Assembly: GCF_058153355.1 (NCBI RefSeq)
Contig: NZ_CM177019.1
Reading direction: 5' to 3' (one strand)
DNA length: 64,000 bases
A model generated the notes under the pieces. That model was not told the DNA's origin. It ran no database searches and saw only the letters and a program-made list of their open reading frames with translations. A program made the position numbers and the translations under genes. Below are positions 9,209 to 50,336 of this stretch, one piece after another (positions within the stretch are counted from its first letter, which is position 1; every line of letters starts with the position of its first letter).

Positions 9209-9679
9209 ATGCTAAGTAACGATATTCTGCGCAGCGTGCGCTACATTTTGAAAGCCAATAATAACGACTTGGTGCGCATTCTGGCGCTGGGTAATGTCGA
9301 AGCCACTGCGGAACAGATCGCCGTCTGGCTACGCAAAGAAGACGAAGAAGGGTTTCAGCGTTGTCCGGACATTGTTCTGTCTTCATTCCTGAATGGCCTG
9401 ATTTATGAAAAACGTGGCAAGGATGAGTCAGCTCCGGCACTGGAGCCGGAACGTCGCATTAATAACAACATCGTGCTGAAAAAATTACGTATCGCGTTTT
9501 CGCTGAAAACTGATGATATTCTGGCGATCCTTACCGAACAGCAGTTCCGCGTTTCGATGCCGGAAATTACGGCGATGATGCGTGCACCGGATCATAAAAA
9601 CTTTCGTGAATGCGGCGATCAATTCATGCGTTATTTTCTGCGTGGGCTGGCAGCGCGCCAGCATGTGAAGAAAAGCTAA
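9209..9679 (+). CDS. yehS: DUF1456 protein YehS
   Basis: 156 aa from MLSNDILRSV; ORF track starts further upstream. Confidence 0.8.
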   Translation: MLSNDILRSVRYILKANNNDLVRILALGNVEATAEQIAVWLRKEDEEGFQRCPDIVLSSFLNGLIYEKRGKDESAPALEPERRINNNIVLKKLRIAFSLKTDDILAILTEQQFRVSMPEITAMMRAPDHKNFRECGDQFMRYFLRGLAARQHVKKS

Positions 9680-15721: not shown

Positions 15722-16810
15722 TCACGGCAGGCGGTGGCGAGCTTGATAATAAGCCTGCCAGTGAGCTTCTTTATGTGTAGCGACACGTTGTTCGAAGTAA
15801 CGGCGCAGACGTGCGCGATCTTCTTCGTTATCTTTGACGATGGTTCCGGCAATACAGTCCACCAGGTCGGCTGGCTCCCCCGCGCGATTCGCTAAAAACC
15901 AGGCGCGGACGCCCACGGCGTGGGCCACGTTAACGGCTTCAGCGGTGGACATAATCGCTGTAAGGGTATCCATTGACGTTTTCTTTTCGCCGTTGGCACG
16001 CAGATCGCGGAAGGTGCGTACCAGTAACTCAAGTACCGCGTCAGGCACTTTATGCGGAATACCGCTATGGGCCAACAAACGCGCCGAAGCACTGGCGACC
16101 AGTTCCAGCTCCTGGGCGAAATCCATAATCGGAAAAACCGTTTCAAAATCGAATCGGCGTTTTAGTGCCGCGCTCATTTCATTAACGCCGCGATCGCGGG
16201 TATTGGCGGTGACAATAATATTAAAGCCTTCCCGCGCATAGAGCTGACTGGCTTCACCAGTGAGTTCCGGCACCGTCATAACCCTGTCAGAAAGCATACC
16301 TAACAGACAGTCTTGTACTTCCAGTGGTGTACGCGTTATCTCTTCAAAACGGACAATTTTGCCGTCGCGCATTCCCTGGTAGAGCGGGGCAGGGACCAGC
16401 GCTTCCGTTGACGGACCATGATTAATAAGCAGGGCGTAGTTCCAGCCGTACTTGATTTGATCTTCGGTGGTAGATGCGCCGCCCTGGATAGTTAACCCAG
16501 CATCGCCGCTAATAGCGGTTGCCAGTAATTCAGACAGGAGAGATTTTGCGGTGCCAGGTTCCCCCACCAACATCAAACCGCGCCCGGTAGCAAGAGTGAC
16601 TAACATGCGTTCGACAGCGGAGGGACTAATCACGACTTTACGGCTGATATTTTGCGCGCTATCGCCAAGAATAAAAGAACGGGCCGCAGGCAAACTTAAC
16701 TGCCAACCGGGCGGGCAAGGTGCGTTATCATTTTGCTTTAATTTTGCCAGTTCATCGGCGTATAACACAGCGGCAGGCGGACGCTGCAGATGATTATTCT
16801 GCGGTGACAT
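15722..16810 (-). CDS. yehL: MoxR-type AAA+ ATPase YehL
   Basis: 362 aa; Walker A GEPGTAKS; first gene of the yehLMPQ array. Confidence 0.85.
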   Translation of the reverse strand: MSPQNNHLQRPPAAVLYADELAKLKQNDNAPCPPGWQLSLPAARSFILGDSAQNISRKVVISPSAVERMLVTLATGRGLMLVGEPGTAKSLLSELLATAISGDAGLTIQGGASTTEDQIKYGWNYALLINHGPSTEALVPAPLYQGMRDGKIVRFEEITRTPLEVQDCLLGMLSDRVMTVPELTGEASQLYAREGFNIIVTANTRDRGVNEMSAALKRRFDFETVFPIMDFAQELELVASASARLLAHSGIPHKVPDAVLELLVRTFRDLRANGEKKTSMDTLTAIMSTAEAVNVAHAVGVRAWFLANRAGEPADLVDCIAGTIVKDNEEDRARLRRYFEQRVATHKEAHWQAYYQARHRLP

Positions 16811-16921
16811 ATATTCATCCCTGAAATGTATTAATCAAATAAACGATATTTTACGCGCAATAAATGTTTGGCGCATTAGTTGTTTGAGCGGAAAATATCT
16901 GGAAAGCAGATCACAGTAAAT

Positions 16922-17002
16922 AAAAAAACCTGCTGGTGAGGCAGGTTCTTTTATTTACTACTTTGACGATAACTTGCTGATTGTGCAACATTTCGTACCA
17001 AC
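16922..17002 (-). ncRNA. orzO: Candidate antisense sRNA antitoxin (OrzO-like), about 80 nt
   Basis: Minus-strand TTGCAA-N17-TATAAT promoter (-10 at 17009..17014), 5' 18 nt complementary to the zorO leader, intrinsic terminator hairpin ~16929..16947 plus T-run. Confidence 0.55.
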
Positions 17003-17008
17003 GAATGA

Positions 17009-17059
17009 ATTATAACCATATCCACATCCCGTTGCAATTCACTAAGCGAGATTTATAAT
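17009..17059. promoter_or_regulatory. Back-to-back divergent sigma70 promoters sharing one palindromic -35 hexamer
   Basis: TTGCAA at 17032..17037 serves as -35 for TATAAT at 17054..17059 (plus strand) and for TATAAT on the minus strand at 17009..17014. Confidence 0.5.
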
Positions 17060-17240
17060 CGTGCCCGTTGGGAGGTTGTGCCGGATTGAACCAATTTCAA
17101 GTCCTGGCTGCCGGACGGGGGGTGCCGCAGGTGGTGCCCTGATCCGGAGAGCAACGTTTCGTACCAACATACGTAAACCAGTATCGACAGGCAGTGTAAG
17201 GGTAAGGTGCTGGTGTTGCGCTCCTTAATAAGGAGAGCGG

Positions 17241-17330
17241 ATGGACACGCTGACACAAAAGTCAACCGTGCTCATTGCCGTACTGGAGTTATTAGTGGCT
17301 CTGTTGCGGTTGATTGATTTGTTGAAGTAA
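17241..17330 (+). CDS. zorO: Small hydrophobic type I toxin (29 aa, MDTLTQKSTVLIAVLELLVALLRLIDLLK), ZorO-like
   Basis: Below the ORF-track cutoff; AAGGAGA Shine-Dalgarno held inside palindrome gcgctccttaataaggagagcg; ~175-nt leader; terminator follows. Confidence 0.6.
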   Translation: MDTLTQKSTVLIAVLELLVALLRLIDLLK

Positions 17331-17353
17331 CGGGCAAATTGAAACGCATCTAA

Positions 17354-17380
17354 GGGGGAATACCGTTTCCCCCTTTAATA
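17354..17380 (+). terminator. Intrinsic terminator of the zorO transcript
   Basis: Hairpin gggggaa-taccg-tttccccc followed by a T-rich tract on the plus strand. Confidence 0.6.
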
Positions 17381-17383
17381 AAG

Positions 17384-17704
17384 CTATTTTTCTATTTGTT
17401 GGATGAATATATTTTGTAGTTCACGATTAAAAATTGCTATTACAGTTTTAGGTGATTCACCTCGTAATTTACGCTCATCAATAAATTCATCTCTTATATA
17501 AATCAACGCATCATTTATTAGCGGGTCGACATCTTCTCGATCACGTTGATGAAATGTTGGATGTAGCCGGAATCGCTCCAACCGGTAGACGGAACCAGTA
17601 AATAATTCAGAGCATTTATGGATCTCAAGTCTGAAGGAAAACGGATCTTCAGGTACAGGGACTTCATAATCATAAGTAGCGACCAGCTCTTTTTGCACGA
17701 TCAT
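17384..17704 (-). CDS. yehK: Uncharacterized protein YehK
   Basis: 106 aa ORF about 60 bp downstream of yehI on the same strand. Confidence 0.75.
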   Translation of the reverse strand: MIVQKELVATYDYEVPVPEDPFSFRLEIHKCSELFTGSVYRLERFRLHPTFHQRDREDVDPLINDALIYIRDEFIDERKLRGESPKTVIAIFNRELQNIFIQQIEK

Positions 17705-17764: not shown

Positions 17765-20700
17765 TTAATGGAAAATGACGTCAGGTGCGCTTAACGCTTC
17801 ACTCAAATCAAACGTATCGAGTTCGGCAAAAGTGACAGATTTATTGTCACGGTACACTCGAAGAGAACGGAAGCTCATTAGCGCTTTGCTATCAGCACTG
17901 TAGTGGTTAAAACCGGGTGAAAACTTAAGGACCAGCCGATACTCGCCCAGGTCATAGACACATGCGTCCTCAAAACCTGACTCCCAGCCTTTGTATCGCA
18001 TTCCCATAAGTTGCCCAACGGTTGCGGATTTACCTTCCCAGCGAGTCAGGCTGTTACTGGCTGACTCGTCAGGTGTGAGCAGCACTGTGCGCCGCATCAA
18101 CTGGCGAAAAGGCGGCATAATTTCGTAATCGGCAAAAACCTGTGCAAATTCACTGCGCATTTCTGCTGTCATTTCTAACGGGTGGGCAATGCCAATCAGA
18201 GCATCCGCAGGCAGGTCAATTGGCTCATCTTGTGCGTTGCAGAACTCCCCCTCAGCGGCCACGCGAAAGGCGTTGAGTAAACGACGCGGTTCATTTGCCG
18301 GATAAACCGCCCATATTAATCGCTGAGTAACCAGGCGAGTAAAGGGATGATTAACAAACAGAGAATGAAAATCTGCCAGCGACCAGCGTCGGGTGGTGCG
18401 TAGGGCAGTTTCAAGACGCGGGAGCAGGTTTTTGCTCACCTGAGTGGCATCTTTTTTTAGCCCTTTTAGTCGGGCCAGTGCCTCGGGTGCTTTCAGCTGA
18501 TCGTCATCGGCGCGCAACCGGGGAACACTTTTCTGGCGAACGTTTTGCTGATCAAAGATAACCGGGTTGAGGTTTTCATCGAAGCGAACGGTAAACTGCC
18601 GGGGTCCAAAATCAAATATCAACGCCTGCGGATCATCCAGGCCCAGTGTTGGGACTAATCTGTCCGCTAACTCTTCCTGGCTTAGTCCACGATTTTCTGC
18701 GACCACCTGAAGAAATTCCGCCGCGTTATCACGTAAGGGACGGGATTTCGCCCGTTGCGATATATGATGCAGCTGTATCAGCGCCATATCATTATTCATC
18801 AGGGTAAGTATGTTCAGGCCACTGACGGCGCGGGCAGATTTGCCTTCCTGTGGCCAGGCGAGGATCTGTGTTGTCAGATCCCGAGCCGTGCTTTCGTCAC
18901 CAAAGAGACTTAACGCCAAAAAAGCCCAGTTGTCTTTTGCGGGGGCGCCAGCCTGTTGCCAGGCGGTGAAGAGATCCCAGGCAAAAGCGGCCAGCGTTTG
19001 TGGCTGGCAGAACGTTTTCAGTTGTTCCAGCCCACAATAAAAACGTCCGCCCTGGGTAAAGCGCAGCATTTCGCCGATAATTTCCAGAGCATCATCAGTA
19101 ACATGTTGATTATTCGTGATAATTCTCGGTCTGGACCACATTGTCGGATGCCAGAAATCAGGGGCTTTGGGAATGCGTGCCGGGTAAATGTCCATTGGAC
19201 CCTGTTTAAGTAATTGCTCCAGGGCAGGCCATACATCTGTATGCTGCCAGCGGTTTGCCACGGTTTGCAGTAATTCGCCATGCCCTTGTTCATACAGTAA
19301 ACGCAGAGCGCTGAGTGCCGCTTCGCTGTTATCGCCAGACCTGGCAAAGATTAATGGGATCAGCGCCGTAGCCGTATGCTCCGGCCATTGTAAAATCCAC
19401 TGGCGAGCCAGATTACGCTGGCCCGCAAAACGATGCCAGACGCGGGCAACGGGCAGCGCCAGTTCTGTTGCGCCAAAATGAATCAGCAGCGGAAATATCT
19501 CTTTGGGATGTCGGGCAAAGGCGGTGATTAATCCGGGCAAAGCATCGGTACCCAGGACACTTAACAGATATTCTACCCCGGTGTAATGAAAATCAGCCGC
19601 GACAATTTGTTGCCAGCACGATACCGCCATTTCGCGCGGCATTTGCGCGATAAGATACAGGTTCCATACTCCCCAACGCTTTTCATCAGTGTAATTAAAT
19701 TTGCGTTGGAAAGTTCGCCACCCCTCCATCAACGCAACACTATCTTGTGCCAGTAATGCGCTGGCGGCCTCTTCCCGGTAGTGTTTATTTTCATTCTGTT
19801 TTGCCTGATAATTGAGCAATCTTCCTACTGAAGTATGTGTCTCTAGTTGATCGGTATCCAGAGCATCCAATTGTCCTTTGAGAATAAACTCATTAAACTT
19901 CCACCTGTGATCTTCAAAACCTAATTCCCGCAAGAAGGTATCCGCCCCTCTGTTAGCAAGACGTTCGTCAAAAGACATGGCGCTAAAATGGTCAATTGCA
20001 GTTTGCTGTTCCGGCGTCCAGTGTTTATTCGGCGACCTGTACGCTTGCGGTACAAGCGTAAGTTCAGGTAGCGAAAAGTGAGTTATGGAAGCCTTTTTCC
20101 TGCCACGCCACGGTGGTGAAACGAGGATTTCAGGCAGACTACTGTTATCGGTGCTATCAATAACCGGTTTTGGCGAAGCCGATAAATAACTATTCACCAC
20201 TGCCCGGGCTTGAGTACTTAACGACGGGATCACCTCTTCTGCCAGTTGTGGCTGCGATGCCATCAGCGTTTGTAACAGCGTACGCCAGTATTCATCACGT
20301 GCTTTTTGCTGTGCAGGCAGCTTTTTGTCTTCGATGATAGGATAACCAGGGCGCGTAGGGGGGGCTTTTAACGCCAGTAGTTCTGCCAGTGCGGCGAGCG
20401 TCGCATGGGGAAAGTTTTTACTGTATTTAGCCACACGCTGCAGGCTGGGTTTGTTTTTATCGGCAACTAACAGCAAGATGCGAATAACTTGCGGATGGTT
20501 AATTTGTACCAGCAGGCTACCGCAATCTTCTTTATGGGCATACATCGCGAGGCGTGGAACGGCTGCAATTCCTTGTTCGCGCAAAAGGGCGGCGCAGGCC
20601 GCGTAGCCGAAGTGGTTTTCATGCGACATGTAGCTGGCTTCGCGATCGCTAAATATATCCTGGCTCCAGTAGCGTTCGAGTTTTCTCACCGCTCTGGGGT

Positions 20701-21421
20701 CATTAGCAACAACTTTTAACCACTCCTTAGAATGAAAATGAGTCCGCGGGCATTCAAGGCCTACCAACTCATTGGCGATTTCTGGTTTCTCCGGGAGGAT
20801 GAGTGCAATAAAAGGACGGCGAACTTGGGGTAGTCCTGGCAGTGCGGCAATGAGTTTGTCGGCGCAACGCTGCCAGCAGCTTTCCTCTGCCAGAGAGAGA
20901 GGCTTACGCAGTCGGAGATCGAATTCGTTATAGGTTTCTGAGCGATAACCATAACCATAGCCATAGTCCTCCTTCTGATACTGCAATGTTACTACCAGAG
21001 GATCGTTCTCATAACACCGCGCAATAAACTGGCGTGCAATCACCACCTCAGTCGCATATTCCAGCCCCTCTTGTTGGACGATTTCGTCGAGCAACTGTTG
21101 GCTGTCATTTTGCGCGATACAGGCTAGCGCCGCCATTGTCCGGGCCGGAATTGAGGGTTTGTGCTCGCCGATCAAGTTGATGGCTTGCGTAATGGCCGAC
21201 TGCCACTCCAGTGAAAAATTTTCATAACGCCAGACAATGTTTTTTTTCTTCTCAGCAATGTGTAGCAATTTATCACCCAGTGTCTGGATGAGGCTTTCAG
21301 TGATAACAGGCACCGGTTCGCCCGGCCAATTGCGATGGCTGAGTGGTGTTTTGCCTTTTTTATATTTCAGTTCCAGTTGGGCGTTATCCGCCAGCCACGG
21401 TAATTCCTTGTCCATGCTCAT
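17765..21421 (-). CDS. yehI: Large DUF4132 protein YehI (no WGR domain)
   Basis: 1218 aa; C-terminal ~500 aa homologous to the two upstream paralogs. Confidence 0.85.
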   Translation of the reverse strand: MSMDKELPWLADNAQLELKYKKGKTPLSHRNWPGEPVPVITESLIQTLGDKLLHIAEKKKNIVWRYENFSLEWQSAITQAINLIGEHKPSIPARTMAALACIAQNDSQQLLDEIVQQEGLEYATEVVIARQFIARCYENDPLVVTLQYQKEDYGYGYGYRSETYNEFDLRLRKPLSLAEESCWQRCADKLIAALPGLPQVRRPFIALILPEKPEIANELVGLECPRTHFHSKEWLKVVANDPRAVRKLERYWSQDIFSDREASYMSHENHFGYAACAALLREQGIAAVPRLAMYAHKEDCGSLLVQINHPQVIRILLLVADKNKPSLQRVAKYSKNFPHATLAALAELLALKAPPTRPGYPIIEDKKLPAQQKARDEYWRTLLQTLMASQPQLAEEVIPSLSTQARAVVNSYLSASPKPVIDSTDNSSLPEILVSPPWRGRKKASITHFSLPELTLVPQAYRSPNKHWTPEQQTAIDHFSAMSFDERLANRGADTFLRELGFEDHRWKFNEFILKGQLDALDTDQLETHTSVGRLLNYQAKQNENKHYREEAASALLAQDSVALMEGWRTFQRKFNYTDEKRWGVWNLYLIAQMPREMAVSCWQQIVAADFHYTGVEYLLSVLGTDALPGLITAFARHPKEIFPLLIHFGATELALPVARVWHRFAGQRNLARQWILQWPEHTATALIPLIFARSGDNSEAALSALRLLYEQGHGELLQTVANRWQHTDVWPALEQLLKQGPMDIYPARIPKAPDFWHPTMWSRPRIITNNQHVTDDALEIIGEMLRFTQGGRFYCGLEQLKTFCQPQTLAAFAWDLFTAWQQAGAPAKDNWAFLALSLFGDESTARDLTTQILAWPQEGKSARAVSGLNILTLMNNDMALIQLHHISQRAKSRPLRDNAAEFLQVVAENRGLSQEELADRLVPTLGLDDPQALIFDFGPRQFTVRFDENLNPVIFDQQNVRQKSVPRLRADDDQLKAPEALARLKGLKKDATQVSKNLLPRLETALRTTRRWSLADFHSLFVNHPFTRLVTQRLIWAVYPANEPRRLLNAFRVAAEGEFCNAQDEPIDLPADALIGIAHPLEMTAEMRSEFAQVFADYEIMPPFRQLMRRTVLLTPDESASNSLTRWEGKSATVGQLMGMRYKGWESGFEDACVYDLGEYRLVLKFSPGFNHYSADSKALMSFRSLRVYRDNKSVTFAELDTFDLSEALSAPDVIFH

Positions 21422-21424
21422 TCC

Positions 21425-24400
21425 TTATTCAAACAGGGCTTCGATGTCGTTAATTAACTCGCTAGCGGTGATGTCATCGAGTGCGGAGAACTGCGCTTCC
21501 TGTGTTGAATTAATCCCCCAGCCATAGCTTTCTGCTTTGCCTTCCCATAGCCACAGCTTGCTTAAGAGTTGCTCGGCACTGAGTTCGGCTGGCGACATAC
21601 CAACTGCAAATCCTTCATCGATTTCCATGATTAATGACCAGCGGCCCAGAGGTTTGATCATCCAGCCGATCCAGCCACCGTCCTGCGGTTCACCACGCAT
21701 CCAGCCTTTATTCGCCAGCCCCATTACCCGACCGCTCGGGCATTTTCTGCCTGCCCAGCGGGTCAATTCGCTGGCATTGCGCTCGGTTTCTGTCAGGGCG
21801 TAACTGTTACGGTCGAGCTGGCGGAACGGCGGTAGCAGTTCGTAGTCGGCAAAAAGCTGACCAAAGGCGGCAGCATCCGTGGGTGATATTTCCAGAACGT
21901 GAGGAATGCCAACAGAGATATCGCCTTCCGGCAGGGTGAAAAGATCATCGTCAGCGGTGCTGTAGCTGTTATCTTCCGCCACACGGAAGCACGCCAGTAA
22001 CTGGTTGTCTGCGCTATAAATGCCCCAAATCAGACGGCGGGTTAAGTGGCAGACCAGCGGATGCTCAACCAGAAAGAGCTGAAAGTTTTCTGGCGACCAG
22101 CGGCGGCGCAGGCACATGGCGGATTCCAGCCTTGCCACCTGCTGGGCGGCAACGGTACGCGCATCTTTTTTCAGCAGTTTGTAGCGGTTAACTGCATCGT
22201 TCGCTTGAGTTTCATCATCGCTTTTGTTCGGTTTAGGCAAGTCTTTCAGGCGGCTGCCGGAAGCATCACGCACAAACGGTTTTAAGGTTTCATCAAAGCT
22301 GACGGTGAACTGCCGTGGCCCGAAATCCAGCAGCAGCGAACCGTTATCATCCAGACCGAGATCCGGTGCTAACCGGTCTTCAAGCTCCGCCACCGTGAGT
22401 TCGCGGCTCTCGGCAATGTCGGCAATTTTTTCTTTTGCCCGCTCCTGTAATGCTTTGAATTTCAGTTTCTGGGCGATGCCGTTAAGCTGCATCAGGGCGA
22501 TATCACTACCGATAGCAGCGAGAATATCCAGCCCGACGGTGGCGCGTTTATGCTGGGATTCACCAGGCCAGGCGCGAATCAAAGGCGTCAGTTTGCGGGC
22601 GGTATCATCGTTGCCGAGAACACCTAACGCAGTGAACGCCCAGCTTTCTTTCGACGGTGCGCCAGCGGTCTGCCAGGCGGTAAACAGATCCCAGGCAAAT
22701 TCAGCCAGTGAGTCGGCGGTACAGGCATCTTTCACCTGCAATAACCCCGCATACAGAGCCTCTTCCTGAGGGAAGCGGAGCATTTCACCGAGGTGGAGGA
22801 GGGCGTTATCTGGCAGTGATTGGGCGTTTGCTTTTAATACCGGGCGTGTCCAGAGCGATGGCTGATAAAAGGCCGGAAGTGTCGGGATTTTAGTCGGGTG
22901 ATTATCTAAGGGATCGAGCGCAAGTAGAGCGTTCACCGCATCGGTTACTTCCGGCTGGTTATAACGCTGGGCGATTTCTTGCAGTAATGACGGATAACCA
23001 CTTTCAATCAACATACGTAAGGCGGCGCGGGCGTTATCCTGGGCTTCACCAGCTTTGCCGAGTGCCGCAGGCAACAGGCCGATAATGGCATGTTCCGGAT
23101 ATTTCAGCAGCCAGGTGCGGGCGTCTTGTCGTAGAGTTTTGAGTTTGTTAAAGGCGCGGGCGACGGCAGGAGCCAGTTCCGTTGCGGCAAAATAATTAGC
23201 AACCGCAAAACCTTCTTGAGGGTAGCGTGAAAACGAGTGTAGAAAACCACTCATACCTGCCAGTCGCAAATAAAGCATGACAGGTTTTACCGCGGTATGC
23301 GGCTCTTTGCTGAGAAACTCCCATAGTTTAATCGCTGTTTGCATAGGTAAAAAGGGAAGTGAGTTGAGATGCCACTCCCCCTGATACGGTGCATGGTGGG
23401 CTTTAAACATTTGGATGAGTGTAGCGAAGTCCTCACGTTCCCATGCGTCAATTGCCGAGTCAGAAGCGCCGATATATTTATATGTGTCAAAATCCCAGCG
23501 GCGATACCCCAGCGAGTAAAGGAAATCTTTAGCACCTTCACCTGGCTTATGCGATTCCCAGTCCCAATGAGTTTGAAACTCTTTTGCTTCTGTGTCGGTT
23601 ATTGTGCATATGGATTTGAGTTTGAGCGGTGCTAAATCCAACACCGGAATCGTCGATTTTTTCTTTTTCGAAAGCCAGGGAGGTAAGACTAATACGGCTG
23701 GCAGTAGAGCGGCGCAGGCATGGTTTGACGGTTGTATCAGTTGTTGCTGGCATGATTTCAGCACTTCAACTGCGGCTGTCGAGAGCCAGGGAGTGACCTG
23801 TTCTGCCAGTGCCGGTTGCGAGATAAGCATCGTCATTAGCATAATGCGCCAAGTATTCTCTTCTTTTTGCGCAAGAAGTTCCGCCAGTGCCGCCAGTGCT
23901 GCGTGTGGGAACGCAGCGCAAGCTTTCGTCATCCGATCGTGACAGCGTTTAGTTTGCCCGGCTACACGTATGAGCAGTGTTAATGCGAACGGATGATTGA
24001 TATGACGCAATACATCTGCGCAGTAGTCACTTGCGGCATAGGGAGCAAATCTGGGCAGGGCTGCAACACCTTGCTCCTGTAATACGGTGGCTGACAATAT
24101 CGCACCACAATAGTAATCATCAAAAATGGCATATGGCTCGTGATATTTTTCTAATGAGGCAAGAATGTGCTCATCAGTCGCCACTATTTTTAGCCACTCA
24201 AGCGAGGGTAATTTTTTTTTCCCCAGTAGACGCTGGGCAATTTCATGTGCAATTTCTGGTTTTTCGGGTAATAACAAAGCAATTAATGGTTGCCGCCATT
24301 CTGGAATATGTGGAATTGCGGCAATAAGTTTTTGTGCACATTTTTGCCAGAGAGACTCTTCCGCCAGTGATAAATGTTTCCGTAGGCGTAATTCAAAACT

Positions 24401-25213
24401 GGAATATTGCTGCAGGTTATCAGGTGCAATACCAGACGGCAGAATAATAATGGTATTATTCGCATAATCCCATTCAATATCAATCTGTTGAAGATGTATT
24501 ACTACATCAGTAGCATATTCCAGGCCACCTTCCTGAACGAGCTGATCCATAACATCCTCACGCTCTTTATATCTCGTGCACTTCAGTTCAAGTGCCGTGA
24601 GTACAGCCATTACTGGTGATGGTAACTGTGTTGTTTTCAGGCAGTCGATCTGACTGAGCGCCTGGGAGATGGCGTTTTGCCATTCTAAAGAACAGGCGCT
24701 GAAGTCAAATGTGGCTGTTTTATTATCCCGTTGCAACACGCTACAGGCTAAGCGGCGTAACTGGGTCAATTCGTCTGCTTGCTGAACAGGAACTCCGGGA
24801 AAGCGGCGATGGCTTAACGTGGTGTGTACAACTTCGGGCGGAAAAACGACAGCAATATCTTTCGCCAGCCACGGTAAAACATCATCTGTATTTTTGTCAG
24901 CCACACGGGCTTCTGCTACGCAAAAGGGTTGTTCCTGAATAATGGTGGATAAGGCCGCTACCTTGAGAGAATCCGTTACCGTTTGGGAAGGTTGCAAAGA
25001 ATTATCCTTCGCTTGCCCCACATACCCCTTCTTCACCTTCTCCGCAATCAGCCTCAGTTCCGCTTTTTCCGCCGCCGCAGCATCAGCAAAGCTTTTTACC
25101 TGGCTTTGCCCGTTGGTACTGACTTTGCCCCAACTAATATGCAGCTCGTTTCCCTGTTGCTCCACTGCCCAGAATTTATGTGATTTTTCGTCCTGATAAA
25201 TATAGGTTTTCAT
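21425..25213 (-). CDS. WGR domain + DUF4132 protein, MolR-family paralog (middle copy)
   Basis: 1262 aa; N-terminal WGR signature KFWAVEQQGNELHISWGKVSTNGQ; stop 3 bp from the yehI start. Confidence 0.8.
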   Translation of the reverse strand: MKTYIYQDEKSHKFWAVEQQGNELHISWGKVSTNGQSQVKSFADAAAAEKAELRLIAEKVKKGYVGQAKDNSLQPSQTVTDSLKVAALSTIIQEQPFCVAEARVADKNTDDVLPWLAKDIAVVFPPEVVHTTLSHRRFPGVPVQQADELTQLRRLACSVLQRDNKTATFDFSACSLEWQNAISQALSQIDCLKTTQLPSPVMAVLTALELKCTRYKEREDVMDQLVQEGGLEYATDVVIHLQQIDIEWDYANNTIIILPSGIAPDNLQQYSSFELRLRKHLSLAEESLWQKCAQKLIAAIPHIPEWRQPLIALLLPEKPEIAHEIAQRLLGKKKLPSLEWLKIVATDEHILASLEKYHEPYAIFDDYYCGAILSATVLQEQGVAALPRFAPYAASDYCADVLRHINHPFALTLLIRVAGQTKRCHDRMTKACAAFPHAALAALAELLAQKEENTWRIMLMTMLISQPALAEQVTPWLSTAAVEVLKSCQQQLIQPSNHACAALLPAVLVLPPWLSKKKKSTIPVLDLAPLKLKSICTITDTEAKEFQTHWDWESHKPGEGAKDFLYSLGYRRWDFDTYKYIGASDSAIDAWEREDFATLIQMFKAHHAPYQGEWHLNSLPFLPMQTAIKLWEFLSKEPHTAVKPVMLYLRLAGMSGFLHSFSRYPQEGFAVANYFAATELAPAVARAFNKLKTLRQDARTWLLKYPEHAIIGLLPAALGKAGEAQDNARAALRMLIESGYPSLLQEIAQRYNQPEVTDAVNALLALDPLDNHPTKIPTLPAFYQPSLWTRPVLKANAQSLPDNALLHLGEMLRFPQEEALYAGLLQVKDACTADSLAEFAWDLFTAWQTAGAPSKESWAFTALGVLGNDDTARKLTPLIRAWPGESQHKRATVGLDILAAIGSDIALMQLNGIAQKLKFKALQERAKEKIADIAESRELTVAELEDRLAPDLGLDDNGSLLLDFGPRQFTVSFDETLKPFVRDASGSRLKDLPKPNKSDDETQANDAVNRYKLLKKDARTVAAQQVARLESAMCLRRRWSPENFQLFLVEHPLVCHLTRRLIWGIYSADNQLLACFRVAEDNSYSTADDDLFTLPEGDISVGIPHVLEISPTDAAAFGQLFADYELLPPFRQLDRNSYALTETERNASELTRWAGRKCPSGRVMGLANKGWMRGEPQDGGWIGWMIKPLGRWSLIMEIDEGFAVGMSPAELSAEQLLSKLWLWEGKAESYGWGINSTQEAQFSALDDITASELINDIEALFE

Positions 25214-25225
25214 TGCTAATTCCTT

Positions 25226-28200
25226 TTAATTAAACAGTGATTCAATGTCGTTAATCAGCTCGCTGGCGGTGATGTCGTCGAGTACGGAGAAAGTGGGTGA
25301 GGATTGCTTACCATAGCGATCATAAGGGGCGATGATTTTTACGCTTTCGACAGGCAGCAGGTCGCTATACCCCGTTTCGCCATAAATTAATGAAAAAGGT
25401 TCTGTTTCAAGTTCGAGAGCGCCATAAGGGGTAGATTTGCGCATCGCATAGACGCTGCCGCTTTCTTCCAGACGTTGCCAGCCTCTGCGTTCCAGCCCGA
25501 CAATGCGTCCGGCCTGGCAGAGACGTCCGTTCCAGCGTGACAATTCATGGACATTACGTTCGTTATCAGCAAGGTGGTAACTACCACGTTCGAGCTGTTG
25601 GAAGGGGGGAAGCAGTTCGTAATCAGCGTAAATTTGCCTGAATGCAGCGACAGATTCAGGGGGGATTTCCAGCATATGCGGAATACCGATGTTTCCTGCT
25701 GGTAGCGTGAATAGCTCATCCTGCATATCGCTGTAAGTGCTGTCTTCTGCGACCCGGAAGCAGGCAATCAGCGTGTTTTCCTCAGTATATACTCCCCATA
25801 ACAGCCGTCGGGTTAAGTGACGTACCAGCGGATGCTCCACCAGAAACAGGCGGAACTGTTCTGCCGTCCAGCGTCTGCGCTGGCACATAGCCTGCTCCAG
25901 ACGATCAATCTGCTGACTGGCAATGGCGCGCACATCTTTCTTCAATTGTTTGAAGAGGTTAACGGCGTCAGTTGCCAGTGTTTTATCATCGCTCTGATTT
26001 GGTTTGGGTAAATCTTTCAGGACTTTGCCGTTTGCATCGCGCACTACAGGTTTTAAGGTTTCGTCAAAACCAACGGTGAATTGACGTGGGCCGAAATCCA
26101 GTATCAGCGAGCCACTGCTATCAAGCCCTAAATCTGGAGCCAGGCGGTCTTCCAGTTCAGCCATTGTCAGTCCGCGATTTTCGGCGACCATATTGATTTT
26201 GTCGCGGGCGTGTTCCTGCAATGCTTTGAATTTAATTTTTTGTGCAATGCCATTAAGCAGCATCAGCGCAATATCGCTACCGATACTGGCTAACACATCC
26301 AGCCCAGAAACCGCACGTTTATGCTGGGATTCACCCGGCCAGACCCGGATAAGCGGGGTTAGTTTACGCGCGGTGTCGTCATTGCCTAAAATCCCCAGCG
26401 AGGTAAATGCCCAGTTTTCTTTTGCGGGCGCGCCAGATTCCATCCATGCCGTGTAGAGATCCCAGCCAAAGTCAGCCAGTGATTCCCGGGTGAAGGTCTC
26501 TTTGATGATCGCCAGCCCAGCGTAGGAGGTAATGTCGCGTGGAAAGCTCAATATTGTGCCCAGGTGGCGCATAGCGTCATCGGGCAGAGGCAGGTTGTTA
26601 CTTTTAAGCCGTGGTCTGCGCCATAAGGTGAACTGATAAAAGCCGGGCAGTGGGGCGATTTTTGCAGGATATTCTTCCAGTGGATCGCTATCGAACAATG
26701 TTGCCAGCGCAGCTAAAACATCAGGTTGATTATATCCCCGGGCGATTTCCTCAATCGTTTCTCGCTGGTTTAAATTCACCAGCAGGCGAAGCGCCTGGCG
26801 GGCACAATCACGATCTTTTCCTTTTTTGCCCAGGGCCACAGGAAGTAGCCCGGCGGCGGCATGGTGTGGGAAGTTAGCCAGCCATTTTCGGGCATCTTCA
26901 TAAGACATTTTTTTCTGTAATCGCTGCGCCATCGGTAATGCTAATTCGCTGACGCCCAGGAAAAGGGTGAATATCCACAACTGTTGTGGCTTACGTTGCA
27001 GACATTTCATAAACGCAGGAATGGCCGCATCACCAAAAATCGCCAGAATTTCTCTCTCGCCGGAGAATTGCTCTTCATTAATTATTTGATTGAGAAAAGA
27101 AATAGCATGCTGAGTGGGTAGGAAGCAGAGCGCGTACAACTGCCAGTGTCTGCTTCCTTTATTATGGTATTGCGCAAACTCTGCTTTCAGCGCGGGGAAA
27201 TCGAAACGTAACAGGGCCTCAACTGCGCTTTGTGGCATTATTTTTTTTTCGTATTGTTCTTCTCCGGTTCTGCTCCATTCCTTAAACCCCAGTCGCCAAA
27301 GGATTTGCTGTTCTGGCGTTAAAGGGATGAAAGACGTTTCCCAGCTTTCCTTTTCAATTAGTGGCAGATCGGTAAATAAGGTTTGCTGTGATGCCTGATA
27401 TTTCGCGATTTCACTGAATCTGGATATGTCAGTGTGACTGATTAACTCTGTAATTCCAGGTGTGATGTCAGTGACGGAAGGGATGGGAAGTACCGGTAAA
27501 TCAAATACGGGTATTACATTCTTTTTCTTATTTATTGCCCACGGTGGAGCGACAAGCAGTTCTGGCAACATATTCGCAGTGGCATACTCACATTCTTTAG
27601 CTACTGACTGAGGACGACATTCAGATAAGATGCCTGCCGCTTTAGCATTAACCCAGGGAATGACGTCGCGTACTAACTCTGGCGTGACGGTAACCAGTTT
27701 GACAAGCGCGTTGCGCCACTGTGCATCTTCATGTATTGCCAGCAAAGTAGCATAAGCGGCAATAGCCGCAGCGGGATGTTTTTGGCAGGCTTTGCTTAAG
27801 TATTCCAGGTGCTTTTTCTTGCCATTTACACCGAGGATCAGAATTTGAATCGCATCCGGGTGATTCGTTTTCCATAGCCATTTGACAAGATCTTCAGTCT
27901 CGCTGATGCGCTCGAAGAGATAAGTGGGATTGTCAGAATGCTCTTCCGTAAACTCAGTAAGTATCCGGCTTACACCGCGCCCCCCATTATTTGCCAGCAA
28001 CATTGCCAGATAAGCGCGAAAATCACGATACAACGGTGGGAAGTCGTATTTTTCTGCTGTAGTCAGAGCTATATCATCGGTTACTACCACTCTTAACCAG
28101 GTTATCGCCGGAACGTTTTGGTCTGCATAGCGTAGAGCCATAGCATTGGCAATATCCGGGCGTTCAGGGAGCAGTAACGCGGCAAAAGGTTGCCGTGCTG

Positions 28201-29023
28201 GGGATAGCGTCGGAATAGCAGTAAGCACTTTATCCACACAGCGTTGCCACTCATCTTCTGAAGCGAGTGAAAGATGATGACATAGACGTTGATGCCAACT
28301 CGGTAGCGATTCTGCTTCGTGATTAGGTGGAATGATGGTGGTTACTGCGCCTTTTACTGGTTTATATTTGAGTTGAAGAGCGAGAAGGGCGATTTCAACG
28401 GCACTTTCCAGACCACAGCGAATGACTAAGTCATCGACCAGTTCATCTTGAGAGTAAGAGTTCCAAAAGCCCCAGAGCAATGCCGCATCAGATTGCGCAC
28501 TCCCTGTCTGTTTATTACCCAGAATTCGCATTTGTACCTCAGCAAAAGCCTGCTGCCAGTTTTCTGGATAAGAACGGTAATTGTTGTCGGGGTCATATGC
28601 CCTGGTGTTATTCGCGATGCGCTTCCATATTTGACCATCTTTGTGCAGATAATTGATATCTCTGGGGCGAGAGCGATGTGGAAAAGCAAATCGGTTAATA
28701 TCGTCGGTTAGCGGAATGACTGCATCATCAGCCAGCCATGGGCGTTTGTTTTTACTCTCGGGTGAAGTTTTAACGTCAGGAGTGACTTTGGTGACGGGGG
28801 ATATATGCACGTTTGCCGAAGCGTCTTCCACATAGCCTTTTTTCGTTTTCTCTGCGATAAGCTTCAGTTCCGCTTTTTCCGCTGCTGCAGCATCAGCAAA
28901 ATTTTTTACCTGGCTTTGCCCTTGGGTACCAACTTTTCCCCAACTGATATGCAAATCGTTACCTTGCTGCTCCACCGCCCAGAATTTATGCGATTTTTCG
29001 TCCTGAAAGATAAAGTGTCTCAT
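25226..29023 (-). CDS. molR: WGR domain + DUF4132 protein, MolR-family paralog (metG-proximal copy)
   Basis: 1265 aa; near-identical N-terminal WGR module; 12-bp gap to the middle paralog; sits where K-12 has molR. Confidence 0.75.
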   Translation of the reverse strand: MRHFIFQDEKSHKFWAVEQQGNDLHISWGKVGTQGQSQVKNFADAAAAEKAELKLIAEKTKKGYVEDASANVHISPVTKVTPDVKTSPESKNKRPWLADDAVIPLTDDINRFAFPHRSRPRDINYLHKDGQIWKRIANNTRAYDPDNNYRSYPENWQQAFAEVQMRILGNKQTGSAQSDAALLWGFWNSYSQDELVDDLVIRCGLESAVEIALLALQLKYKPVKGAVTTIIPPNHEAESLPSWHQRLCHHLSLASEDEWQRCVDKVLTAIPTLSPARQPFAALLLPERPDIANAMALRYADQNVPAITWLRVVVTDDIALTTAEKYDFPPLYRDFRAYLAMLLANNGGRGVSRILTEFTEEHSDNPTYLFERISETEDLVKWLWKTNHPDAIQILILGVNGKKKHLEYLSKACQKHPAAAIAAYATLLAIHEDAQWRNALVKLVTVTPELVRDVIPWVNAKAAGILSECRPQSVAKECEYATANMLPELLVAPPWAINKKKNVIPVFDLPVLPIPSVTDITPGITELISHTDISRFSEIAKYQASQQTLFTDLPLIEKESWETSFIPLTPEQQILWRLGFKEWSRTGEEQYEKKIMPQSAVEALLRFDFPALKAEFAQYHNKGSRHWQLYALCFLPTQHAISFLNQIINEEQFSGEREILAIFGDAAIPAFMKCLQRKPQQLWIFTLFLGVSELALPMAQRLQKKMSYEDARKWLANFPHHAAAGLLPVALGKKGKDRDCARQALRLLVNLNQRETIEEIARGYNQPDVLAALATLFDSDPLEEYPAKIAPLPGFYQFTLWRRPRLKSNNLPLPDDAMRHLGTILSFPRDITSYAGLAIIKETFTRESLADFGWDLYTAWMESGAPAKENWAFTSLGILGNDDTARKLTPLIRVWPGESQHKRAVSGLDVLASIGSDIALMLLNGIAQKIKFKALQEHARDKINMVAENRGLTMAELEDRLAPDLGLDSSGSLILDFGPRQFTVGFDETLKPVVRDANGKVLKDLPKPNQSDDKTLATDAVNLFKQLKKDVRAIASQQIDRLEQAMCQRRRWTAEQFRLFLVEHPLVRHLTRRLLWGVYTEENTLIACFRVAEDSTYSDMQDELFTLPAGNIGIPHMLEIPPESVAAFRQIYADYELLPPFQQLERGSYHLADNERNVHELSRWNGRLCQAGRIVGLERRGWQRLEESGSVYAMRKSTPYGALELETEPFSLIYGETGYSDLLPVESVKIIAPYDRYGKQSSPTFSVLDDITASELINDIESLFN

Positions 29024-42047: not shown

Positions 42048-42271
42048 TTTTTATCTCACCTATCAAATTTAGATAAATAATATAAATTAGATAAATAAGA
42101 TAATCAATAGTTTTTACCATATGAATAATGGATGTGGATTGTTTCTTTTTCATTTCTGATATGGAGTACAAAATGGGGTCACAATGAAGAAGCGATGAAT
42201 GGAGGCGAGCTTGCATCTGCAAGCCTCTTCCCCTAATCTGGCACAAAATATAGAGATTCAACCAAACGACT

Positions 42272-42392
42272 CGGGGTGCCCTTCTGCGTGAAGGCTGAGA
42301 AATACCCGTATCACCTGATCTGGATAATGCCAGCGTAGGGAAGTCACGGACCACCAGGTCATTGCTTCTTCACGTTATGGCAGGAGCAAACT
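42272..42392 (+). ncRNA. TPP (thiamine pyrophosphate) riboswitch in the thiM leader
   Basis: THI-box core ...ggggtgcccttctgcgtgaaggctgagaaatacccgtatcacctgatctggataatgccagcgtagggaa... directly upstream of thiM ATG. Confidence 0.9.
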
Positions 42393-43181
42393 ATGCAAGT
42401 CGACCTGCTGAGTTCCGCGCAATCTGCGCACGCGTTACACCTTTTTCACCAACATTCCCCTCTTGTGCATTGCATGACCAATGATGTGGTGCAAACCTTT
42501 ACTGCCAATACCTTGCTGGCGCTCGGTGCATCGCCAGCGATGGTTATCGAAACCGAAGAAGCCAGTCAGTTTGCGGCTATCGCCAGTGCCTTGCTAATTA
42601 ACGTCGGCACGCAGACGCAGCCACGCGCACAGGCGATGCGTGCTGCCGTTGAACAGGCAACACACTCTCAAACCCCCTGGACGCTTGATCCGGTCGCGGT
42701 TGGCGCACTCGATTATCGTCGCCGTTTTTGTCATGAACTTTTATCTTTTAAACCGGCAGCGATACGTGGTAATGCTTCGGAAATCATGGCATTAGCTGGC
42801 GTTGCTAATGGTGGACGGGGAGTGGACACCACTGACGCCGCAGCTAATGCGATACCCGCTGCACAAACACTGGCACGGGAAACTGGCGCAATCGTCGTGG
42901 TCACAGGCGAGGTGGATTATGTTACCGATGGTCGTCGCACCGTTGGCATTCACGGCGGCAATCCGTTAATGACCAAAGTGGTAGGAACTGGCTGTGCATT
43001 ATCGGCAGTTGTCACTGCCTGTTGCGCATTACCAGGCGATATGCTGGAAAATATCGCATCTGCCTGTCACTGGATGAAACAAGCCGGAGAACGCGCCGTC
43101 GCCAGAAGTGAAGGGCCTGGCAGTTTTGTTCCCCATTTTCTTGATGCGCTCTGGCAATTGACGAAGGAGGTGCAGGCATGA
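42393..43181 (+). CDS. thiM: Hydroxyethylthiazole kinase
   Basis: 262 aa ORF following the TPP riboswitch. Confidence 0.9.
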
Positions 43182-50204: not shown

Positions 50205-50336
50205 ACCCCGTAGGGCGGATAAGGCGTTCACACCGCATCCGGCAACCTATGCCTGATGCGACGCTGAAGCGTCTTATCATGCCTACACAGCGCTGCCACG
50301 TATGCCGGATAAGGCGTTTACGTTGCATCTGGCATA
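50205..50336. repeat. Cluster of REP/BIME extragenic palindromes
   Basis: Three REP-like units (gtagggcggataaggcgttcacaccgcatccggcaa and relatives). Confidence 0.6.

What the first reader, a model, noticed from the sequence alone, without database searches (positions are those of the whole stretch)
16920..17380. Compact type I toxin-antitoxin locus (zorO-orzO-like) between yehK and yehL
Seen in sequence: a 29-codon ORF (MDTLTQKSTVLIAVLELLVALLRLIDLLK) with its AAGGAGA ribosome-binding site inside a palindrome; a ~175-nt leader; and an intrinsic terminator. A minus-strand promoter (TTGCAA-N17-TATAAT) would start a transcript of ~80 nt ending at a hairpin plus T-run near 16929. The two promoters are back-to-back and share the same palindromic TTGCAA hexamer as -35. 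An 18-bp direct repeat (gcaacatttcgtaccaac at ~16985..17002 and gcaacgtttcgtaccaac at ~17151..17168) means the 5' end of the minus-strand RNA can pair with the toxin leader over 18 nt (one G-U pair). Established knowledge: this layout (small hydrophobic toxin, long structured leader, divergent sRNA with ~18-nt complementarity) is that of tisB/istR, shoB/ohsC and zorO/orzO. The peptide and the 174-nt leader / 81-nt sRNA sizes match what I recall of ZorO/OrzO from E. coli O157:H7, a locus reported absent from K-12. Inference: the gene names, and any regulatory cross-talk with the flanking yeh operons.
Basis: partly seen in the sequence, partly recalled or inferred. Interest (0 to 1): 0.6.

Follow-up and report, generated by a model that had tools for sequence, protein, structure and literature searches.

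The report
Known zorO-orzO toxin-antitoxin locus

Summary
The minus-strand RNA (17002 to 16922, 81 nt) matches Rfam family OrzO-P at 90.6 bits, against a gathering score of 60. It is the only such match in the window. The plus-strand ORF (17241-17330) is 28/29 identical to UniProt ZORO_ECO57.

Compared with the zorO-orzO copy of E. coli O157:H7, these parts are identical:
- both promoters, including the shared TTGCAA -35 hexamer;
- the 18-nt OrzO/zorO pairing (17 Watson-Crick pairs plus one G-U);
- the OrzO-specific "GAA" V1 triplet;
- the EAP (exposed after processing) standby region;
- the hairpin that sequesters the ribosome-binding site.

Only 3, 5 and 2 substitutions fall in the sRNA, the leader and the ORF. 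The locus lies between yehL and yehK, as published.

Three differences from the textbook case:
- There is one copy, not the O157 tandem pair. About 25% of E. coli are reported to have a single pair.
- The host is a divergent Escherichia lineage labelled E. coli, about 95% identical to complete genomes.
- The toxin carries L8S. Three near-identical assemblies lack it, as do about 5,000 zor copies in 3,318 complete E. coli genomes and 15 metagenome copies. Published N-terminal truncations stay toxic, so L8S is probably neutral.

Verdict: already known, low interest.

The parts
16922..17002 (-). orzO gene: 81-nt antitoxin sRNA OrzO. The 5' end is set by homology to the mapped EDL933 start. The 3' end is the U-run of the terminator.
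   Evidence: Rfam RF02083 OrzO-P: 90.6 bits against a gathering score of 60, E = 8e-15, full model. Three substitutions relative to O157:H7 OrzO (nt 34, 40, 41), all outside the pairing domain. Fold z-score -3.26.
16985..17002 (-). OrzO 5' pairing domain, GUUGGUACGAAAUGUUGC. Nucleotides +9..+11 are GAA, the V1 triplet that defines OrzO as opposed to OrzP (ACG).
   Evidence: V1 definition from PMC3919570. Identical to O157:H7 OrzO.
16927..16947 (-). OrzO intrinsic terminator: G/C core of the hairpin, followed on the minus strand by 7 U (16928-16922).
   Evidence: (I1). Invariant in 7 loci.
17009..17014 (-). orzO -10 hexamer, TATAAT.
   Evidence: Same hexamer as in EDL933, and conserved in 99.8% of loci (PMC11264685 Table 3).
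17032..17037 (.). Palindromic TTGCAA that serves as the -35 hexamer for both divergent promoters.
   Evidence: PMC11264685 Table 3.
17054..17059 (+). zorO -10 hexamer, TATAAT.
   Evidence: Invariant in 7 loci.
17067..17240 (+). zorO 5' UTR of 174 nt. The first 28 nt (17067-17094) correspond to the segment removed by processing in EDL933.
   Evidence: [quoted passage not shown] Five substitutions relative to O157:H7 (+21, +23, +32, +54, +66), none in the EAP region or the RBS.
17139..17168 (+). EAP region (+73..+102), the putative ribosome standby site. It contains the GGAGAG motif (17146-17151) and the OrzO target GCAACGUUUCGUACCAAC (17151-17168).
   Evidence: In RNAfold the target is paired with the mRNA 5' end in the full-length RNA and is largely open after removal of 28 nt.
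17218..17238 (+). Hairpin that sequesters the RBS (AAGGAG, 17230-17235).
   Evidence: (I10). The RBS is fully paired in both the full-length and the processed predicted folds, as shown by probing in PMC5397157.
17241..17330 (+). zorO ORF: 29 aa plus stop, MDTLTQKSTVLIAVLELLVALLRLIDLLK. The codon at 17262-17264 is TCA (Ser8) where all relatives have TTA (Leu8).
17352..17375 (+). zorO 3' hairpin, AAGGGGGAA-UACCGU-UUCCCCCUU, the presumed terminator. It lies 8 nt before the convergent yehK stop codon.
   Evidence: Conserved in 7 loci. Not flagged by the scan because the T-run is short.
15722..16810 (-). Flanking gene yehL (MoxR/AAA_5 ATPase).
17384..17704 (-). Flanking gene yehK (106 aa).

Best explanation

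How it works (taken from EDL933 experiments, not tested in this strain):
- Two back-to-back sigma-70 promoters share one TTGCAA -35 hexamer.
- One promoter drives the zorO mRNA: a 174-nt leader followed by a 29-aa ORF. The other drives the 81-nt OrzO sRNA.
- The full-length zorO mRNA is poorly translated for two reasons. Its RBS is locked in a hairpin, and its own 5' end pairs with the upstream EAP (exposed after processing) standby region.
- Removing the first 28 nt opens the EAP region and allows ribosome loading.
- The first 18 nt of OrzO pair with +85..+102 inside that region. This blocks standby loading and triggers RNase III-dependent decay, so the inner-membrane-depolarising peptide is not made.

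Shown here: sequence identity of every functional element, family membership of the sRNA, and predicted folds that reproduce the published structural switch.

Inferred by homology: transcription, processing, toxicity and repression in this strain.

The toxin carries a private L8S substitution that most likely leaves it functional.
For: - sRNA family: Rfam OrzO-P at 90.6 bits, gathering score 60.
- Toxin: 28/29 identical to the sequence named 'Small toxic protein ZorO, ZORO_ECO57'. The same sequence is printed in PMC6669753.
- Locus identity: 95.5% over about 490 nt to the yehK-proximal copy (z3289 = zorO) of O157:H7.
- Identical to O157:H7: promoter hexamers, RBS, EAP region, GGAGAG motif and both 18-mers.
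- Type: V1 = GAA, the OrzO type.
- Pairing specificity: the cognate 18-mer duplex is -28.1 kcal/mol, against -16.9 and -15.7 for cross pairs with the P type.
- Concerted change: across 7 loci in 5 genomes (4 or more lineages), the orz 5' end and the zor target change together at 4 positions between the O and P types, which keeps complementarity.
- Folding: RNAfold pairs nt 1-13 with the target in the full-length leader and frees it after removal of 28 nt, while the RBS stays paired. This matches the probing data in PMC5397157.
- Published experiments: toxicity, rescue by OrzO, RNase III dependence and sufficiency of the 18 nt (PMC3919570).
- Position: between yehL and yehK/yehI, as published (PMC2887945).
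Against: - There is no expression or toxicity data for this strain.
- L8S lies next to K7, and K7E abolishes toxicity (PMC9860968). L8S is absent from all other copies examined. An effect on activity or membrane insertion therefore cannot be excluded.
- The leader's overall folding energy is not unusual for its composition (z = -1.28).
- The zorO 3' hairpin lacks a long U-run.
- NCBIfam has no model that matches the peptide.
Confidence: 0.93

Rival explanations
1. The locus is zorO-orzO, but the toxin is attenuated or inactivated by L8S. On this reading the strain carries a decaying or domesticated module on its way to the orz-only state seen in about 30% of E. coli.
For: - 17263 C (Ser8) is private to the window. 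Three near-identical assemblies have T: GCA_043012465.1, GCA_015332025.1 and SRR28786219.
- The Ser8 context gives 0 hits in 5,426 complete E. coli genomes. The Leu8 context gives 5,067 places in 3,318 genomes.
- In JGI metagenomes the counts are 0 for Ser8 and 15 for Leu8.
- The exact L8S peptide is not in the 15-billion-protein collection.
- It was the only difference in 7,089 bp from the closest contig.
- Hydropathy (GRAVY) falls from 1.40 to 1.24.
- The neighbouring K7 is functionally sensitive.
Against: - Deleting the N-terminal 8 or 13 residues leaves ZorO toxic. The essential segment is ALLRL, residues 20-24, which is intact here (PMC6669753).
- All regulatory elements are intact, which would not be expected in a decaying locus.
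- The window has 2-4 other private SNPs in about 39 kb, so one SNP in zorO is compatible with drift.
Confidence: 0.08
2. The C at 17263 is a sequencing or assembly error, or an introduced change. On this reading the real locus encodes canonical ZorO.
For: All three near-identical assemblies read T. The variant is unique among thousands of copies.
Against: Other private transitions exist in the window at a similar density (873, 9269, 34482), which is what a distinct isolate of the same clone would show. No read data are available.
Confidence: 0.15
3. It is a member of another zor-orz type (zorP-orzP or zorQ-orzQ), or a different divergent type I family (shoB-ohsC, tisB-istR).
For: There is a weak sub-threshold Rfam hit to ohsC_RNA: 28.5 bits against a gathering score of 50. 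The general layout is shared.
Against: - V1 is GAA, not ACG.
- The peptide has T3 (ZorP has S3) and A20 (ZorQ has S20).
- Identity to the O copy is 95.5%, against about 89% to the P copy.
- The ohsC hit rests on the terminator only.
Confidence: 0.01

Closest known systems
zorO-orzO of E. coli O157:H7 EDL933 (z3289 / sRNA-1; Fozo 2010, Wen 2014, Wen 2017)
   Same: Same position (the yehL-yehK/yehI spacer) and the same divergent layout. Identical -35 and -10 hexamers, OrzO 5' 18-mer with V1 = GAA, zorO target, EAP (exposed after processing) region, RBS hairpin, 174-nt leader, 81-nt sRNA and 29-aa ORF.
   Different: - L8S in the toxin.
- 3 substitutions in OrzO, 5 in the leader, 8 in the 64-nt promoter spacer, and 1 synonymous substitution in the ORF.
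- A single copy that abuts the yehL side, with no zorP-orzP partner.
- The zorO hairpin lies 8 nt from the yehK stop codon, against about 65 nt in O157.
zorP-orzP (z3290 / sRNA-2) and the orphan orzPmg of K-12
   Same: Same family, the same Rfam model and the same promoters and terminators. The left flank toward yehL is shared with these copies.
   Different: V1 is ACG, and the target sequence differs at 6 of 18 positions. ZorP has T3S. K-12 retains only orzP plus about 45 nt of leader.
tisB-istR1, shoB-ohsC and dinQ-agrB (divergent type I loci of E. coli)
   Same: The mechanistic class is the same:
- a small hydrophobic inner-membrane toxin;
- a long structured leader with a sequestered RBS;
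- activation by 5' processing that exposes a standby site;
- a divergently encoded sRNA whose 5' end pairs about 18-20 nt far upstream of the RBS.
   Different: There is no sequence homology of toxin or sRNA. Only a sub-threshold, terminator-driven ohsC hit was seen. There is no SOS (LexA) control as in tisB and dinQ, and no leader ORF such as tisA.

Membership tests
zor-orz type I toxin-antitoxin family (Rfam RF02083 OrzO-P; UniProt ZORO_ECO57) | The sRNA matches the OrzO-P covariance model at or above the gathering score. | tested here: met
   90.6 bits against a gathering score of 60, full-length match at 16922-16995 on the minus strand.
zor-orz type I toxin-antitoxin family (Rfam RF02083 OrzO-P; UniProt ZORO_ECO57) | A 29-aa hydrophobic Zor peptide homologous to ZorO, with the ALLRL motif (residues 20-24) and the charged residues K7, E16, R23 and K29. 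| tested here: met
   28/29 identical. ALLRL, K7, E16, R23 and K29 are all present. The only difference is L8S.
zor-orz type I toxin-antitoxin family (Rfam RF02083 OrzO-P; UniProt ZORO_ECO57) | Divergent genes with TTGCAA -35 and TATAAT -10 promoters and an AAGGAG RBS. | tested here: met
   The hexamers match Table 3 of PMC11264685.
zor-orz type I toxin-antitoxin family (Rfam RF02083 OrzO-P; UniProt ZORO_ECO57) | The Orz 5' end is complementary to the zor leader. The published threshold for repression is at least 15 continuous or at least 17 discontinuous nt. | tested here: met
   18 of 18 positions pair (17 Watson-Crick plus 1 G-U) at +85..+102, -28.1 kcal/mol.
zor-orz type I toxin-antitoxin family (Rfam RF02083 OrzO-P; UniProt ZORO_ECO57) | Chromosomal position in the yehI/yehK-yehL spacer. 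| tested here: met
O type within zor-orz (zorO-orzO rather than P or Q) | OrzO V1 triplet (+9..+11) is GAA. The Zor peptide has T3 and A20. | tested here: met
zor-orz type I toxin-antitoxin family (Rfam RF02083 OrzO-P; UniProt ZORO_ECO57) | [quoted passage not shown] | tested here: met
   In silico only. The RNAfold minimum-free-energy structures of the full-length and delta-28 leaders reproduce the published probing pattern. The overall energy z-score is not significant (-1.28).
Type I toxin-antitoxin system (functional definition) | The peptide is toxic on overproduction, and the toxicity is neutralised by the sRNA through base pairing (RNase III-dependent). | not testable with these tools
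   Demonstrated for the EDL933 ortholog (PMC3919570, PMC5397157). Not tested for the L8S variant.
Type I toxin-antitoxin system (functional definition) | Both RNAs are transcribed in the host. | not testable with these tools
   No transcriptome is available. The promoters are identical to the mapped EDL933 promoters (PMC2887945).

The most novel reading that the evidence does not exclude
The private L8S change is not neutral. On this reading it is a selected hypomorphic or specificity-altering mutation of the toxin, for example one that alters membrane insertion depth or oligomerisation next to K7. It would then be a natural intermediate between intact zor-orz loci and the widespread orz-only state.
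Probability: 0.07. Interest if true: 0.25.

Novelty: already known. Interest (0 to 1): 0.1.

Why it matters
It matters little beyond annotation. The locus should be labelled zorO and orzO, because automatic pipelines usually leave it blank (RefSeq records list 'none' under the match). It also shows that the O-type pair occurs unchanged in its regulatory parts in a lineage about 5% diverged from mainstream E. coli. That fits strong purifying selection on the RNA-RNA interaction and the leader switch. The L8S allele is a ready-made natural variant for anyone mapping ZorO structure-function.

Tried and rejected
- NCBIfam scan of the 29-aa peptide gave no family. The peptide is too short, or no model exists, so this is not evidence against.
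- Searching the supplement of PMC11264685 for the peptide strings found nothing. I could not check whether L8S is in their variant tables.
- The species-representative genome scan for a conserved 25-mer found three non-coli Escherichia species (sp. E1V33, sp. MOD1-EC7003, E. whittamii). None is the source: they are 90-96% identical.
- My first parse of the MOD1-EC7003 locus suggested a missing target. The alignment showed an ordinary P-type RNA pair with a ZorO-type peptide.
- A whole-molecule RNAduplex of OrzO against the leader gave a physically meaningless extended structure. I replaced it with 18-mer duplexes.
- Covariation in the self-inhibitory 5'-end/EAP (exposed after processing) helix could not be tested. 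Its paired positions are invariant among the loci collected.
- The weak Rfam hits to ohsC, STnc370 and the Thr and Trp leaders, and the plus-strand OrzO-P hit, all come from the symmetric terminator hairpin and were dismissed.
- The promoter scan alone is not above chance: 2 found against 1.7 expected.

Full report
**1.

- A 29-codon ORF, MDTLTQKSTVLIAVLELLVALLRLIDLLK, lies at 17241-17330 on the + strand.
- The RBS AAGGAG (17230-17235) sits in a 10-bp inverted repeat, 17218-17227 / 17229-17238.
- Two promoter-like sites each match 10 of 12 consensus positions and share the palindromic TTGCAA at 17032-17037 as -35. The + strand site has -10 at 17054-17059. The - strand site has -10 at 17014-17009.
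- An 18-bp direct repeat lies at 16985-17002 and 17151-17168 and is 17/18 identical. None was expected in shuffles of the window.
- On the minus strand a G/C hairpin (16927-16947) followed by seven U ends an 81-nt RNA that starts at 17002.
- After the ORF a 9-bp G/C-rich hairpin (17352-17375) is present. Its U-run is short, so the simple scan did not flag it.

The promoter matches are not above chance on their own: 2 found against 1.7 expected. Their weight comes from homology.

**2. What it is.**

- The minus-strand RNA matches Rfam RF02083 (OrzO-P antitoxin) over the full model at 90.6 bits, against a gathering score of 60. It is the only such match in the 64-kb window.
- The region is 95.5% identical over about 490 nt to E. 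coli O157:H7. In that genome the 1.24-kb yehL-yehK spacer holds two tandem units.
- The yehK-proximal unit encodes MDTLTQKLTVLIAVLELLVALLRLIDLLK. The protein collection names this sequence 'Small toxic protein ZorO, ZORO_ECO57', and PMC6669753 prints it as ZorO. The yehL-proximal unit encodes the T3S variant, ZorP.
- The window's unit aligns with the O copy.
- Its sRNA begins GUUGGUACGAA..., so nt +9..+11 are GAA. This V1 triplet distinguishes OrzO from OrzP, which has ACG (PMC3919570).
- The differences from O157:H7 are 3 nt in OrzO (positions 34, 40, 41), 5 nt in the 174-nt leader (+21, +23, +32, +54, +66), 8 nt in the 64-nt promoter spacer outside the hexamers, and 2 nt in the ORF.
- With the transcription start at 17067, the RBS falls at +164..+169 and the target at 73-90 nt upstream of the ATG. 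Both match the published numbering.
- The flanking ORFs are yehL (15722-16810, minus strand) and yehK (17384-17704, minus strand), by homology to annotated RefSeq records.

**3. How it most likely works.**

The mechanism is taken from experiments on the EDL933 ortholog.

- ZorO overproduction arrests growth and OrzO rescues it. Rescue needs RNase III but not Hfq. The first 18 nt of OrzO suffice (PMC3919570).
- The full-length leader hinders translation, and a form lacking the first 28 nt is more active. The RBS stays in a stem in both forms. Processing opens the EAP region, a putative standby site, which is also where OrzO binds and blocks translation (PMC5397157).
- ZorO localises to the inner membrane and depolarises it. 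The ALLRL segment (residues 20-24) is required (PMC6669753).

For the window's sequence I could test the RNA part in silico.

- RNAfold pairs nt 1-13 of the leader with the OrzO target in the full-length RNA. It leaves most of the target unpaired after removal of 28 nt. The RBS is fully paired in both forms.
- The cognate 18-mer duplex is -28.1 kcal/mol. The cross pairs with the P type are -16.9 and -15.7 kcal/mol.
- I compared seven loci from five genomes: the window, O157:H7, Escherichia sp. E1V33, sp. MOD1-EC7003 and E. whittamii. The orz 5' end and the zor target change in concert at four positions between the O and P types, and complementarity is preserved. This is comparative support for the RNA-RNA interaction.

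Transcription, processing, toxicity and repression in this particular strain are inferred, not shown.

**4. What differs from the textbook locus.**

(a) Copy number. The window has one unit, and its left flank is the yehL-proximal flank that zorP-orzP and the K-12 remnant use elsewhere. Single-pair genomes make up about 25% of E. coli (PMC11264685).

(b) Host.
- The window is only about 95% identical to the best of 5,426 complete E. coli genomes over 24 kb, and at most 98% over yehM-yehL.
- Its YehL and YehK proteins are nevertheless labelled E. coli in NCBI.
- Near-identical draft contigs exist: GCA_043012465.1, GCA_015332025.1 and several Logan assemblies.
- The family was already reported in most E. 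coli, Shigella and E. fergusonii (PMC2887945).

(c) Toxin variant.
- Ser8 (TCA) replaces Leu8 (TTA).
- This T-to-C change at 17263 was the only difference in 7,089 bp from GCA_043012465.1. It is also absent from GCA_015332025.1 and SRR28786219.
- A 37-mer centred on the Ser codon has no hit in complete E. coli genomes. The Leu version hits 5,067 places in 3,318 genomes.
- In JGI metagenomes the counts are 0 and 15.
- The exact peptide is absent from the 15-billion-protein collection. Small ORFs are often not called, so this is weak evidence.
- The window has 2-4 other private transitions in about 39 kb, so one SNP in zorO is compatible with drift.
- Deleting the N-terminal 8 or 13 residues does not abolish toxicity, so L8S is probably tolerated. 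The adjacent K7 is sensitive to charge reversal, so an effect cannot be excluded. A sequencing error also cannot be excluded.

**5. Comparison with known systems, and novelty.**

Membership in the zor-orz family, and in the O type, is met on every sequence-level criterion I could test (see the membership table). The functional criteria cannot be tested with these tools.

Mechanistically the locus belongs with tisB-istR1, shoB-ohsC and dinQ-agrB. All are divergent type I loci with standby-site control.

A K-12-like genome retains an intact orzP, both promoters and about 45 nt of leader. This was published in 2024 as the expressed orphan antitoxin OrzPmg.

Nothing here is new in kind. The locus is already known and extensively characterised.

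**6. Verdict.**

- Observation: confirmed.
- Interpretation: supported.
- Novelty: already known.
- Interest: about 0.1. The only mildly interesting residue is the private L8S allele.

Noticed in passing
window 17263 (codon 17262-17264): The single base that makes ZorO Leu8 into Ser8 is private to this window. Three near-identical assemblies and all other copies examined have T. It was the only difference in 7,089 bp from GCA_043012465.1.
   Followed up: yes
L002 2523-2700 (K-12-like strain LTE0, yehL-yehK spacer): The K-12 lineage keeps an intact orzP gene (Rfam 99.9 bits), both promoters and about 45 nt of the zor leader, but has no toxin ORF. This matches the published orphan antitoxin OrzPmg (PMC11264685).
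   Followed up: yes
window 1-64000: The window is only about 95% identical to the best complete E. coli genome over 24 kb (98% at best over yehM-yehL). Its proteins are nevertheless labelled E. coli in NCBI drafts (GCA_015332025.1, GCA_043012465.1). The source appears to be a divergent Escherichia lineage.
   Followed up: partly
window 42262-42358 (+): A TPP riboswitch (RF00059, 71.2 bits) lies directly upstream of the ORF at 42393-43181, presumably the thiM operon.
   Followed up: no
window 50213-50283 (+): A borderline match to naRNA4 / CssrE (RF02564, 60.0 bits against a gathering score of 59.5), a REP-derived nucleoid-associated RNA family.
   Followed up: no
window 17765-29023 (-): Three large tandem WGR/DUF4132 paralogues (1218, 1262 and 1265 aa; yehI and neighbours) are all intact here. 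In the near-identical Logan assembly SRR28786219 the middle one is split by a 2-nt indel at window 24820-24823.
   Followed up: partly
window 16809-16827 and 17394-17412: An imperfect 19-nt inverted repeat (84% complementary) brackets the whole yehL-yehK spacer and overlaps the yehL start and the yehK 3' end. It is possibly chance, or possibly related to gain and loss of zor-orz units.
   Followed up: no
L005 12011-12645 (Escherichia whittamii) and L004 1678 (Escherichia sp. MOD1-EC7003): Other Escherichia species carry zor-orz. E. whittamii has an O-type plus P-type tandem pair, in which the P-type unit encodes a Q6R peptide variant. MOD1-EC7003 has a P-type RNA pair that encodes the canonical ZorO peptide. 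RNA type and peptide type are therefore not strictly linked.
   Followed up: partly
window 9269, 873, 34482: Further transitions distinguish the window from near-identical assemblies. Position 9269 (T against C) differs from two assemblies. Positions 873 and 34482 could each be checked against only one assembly.
   Followed up: no
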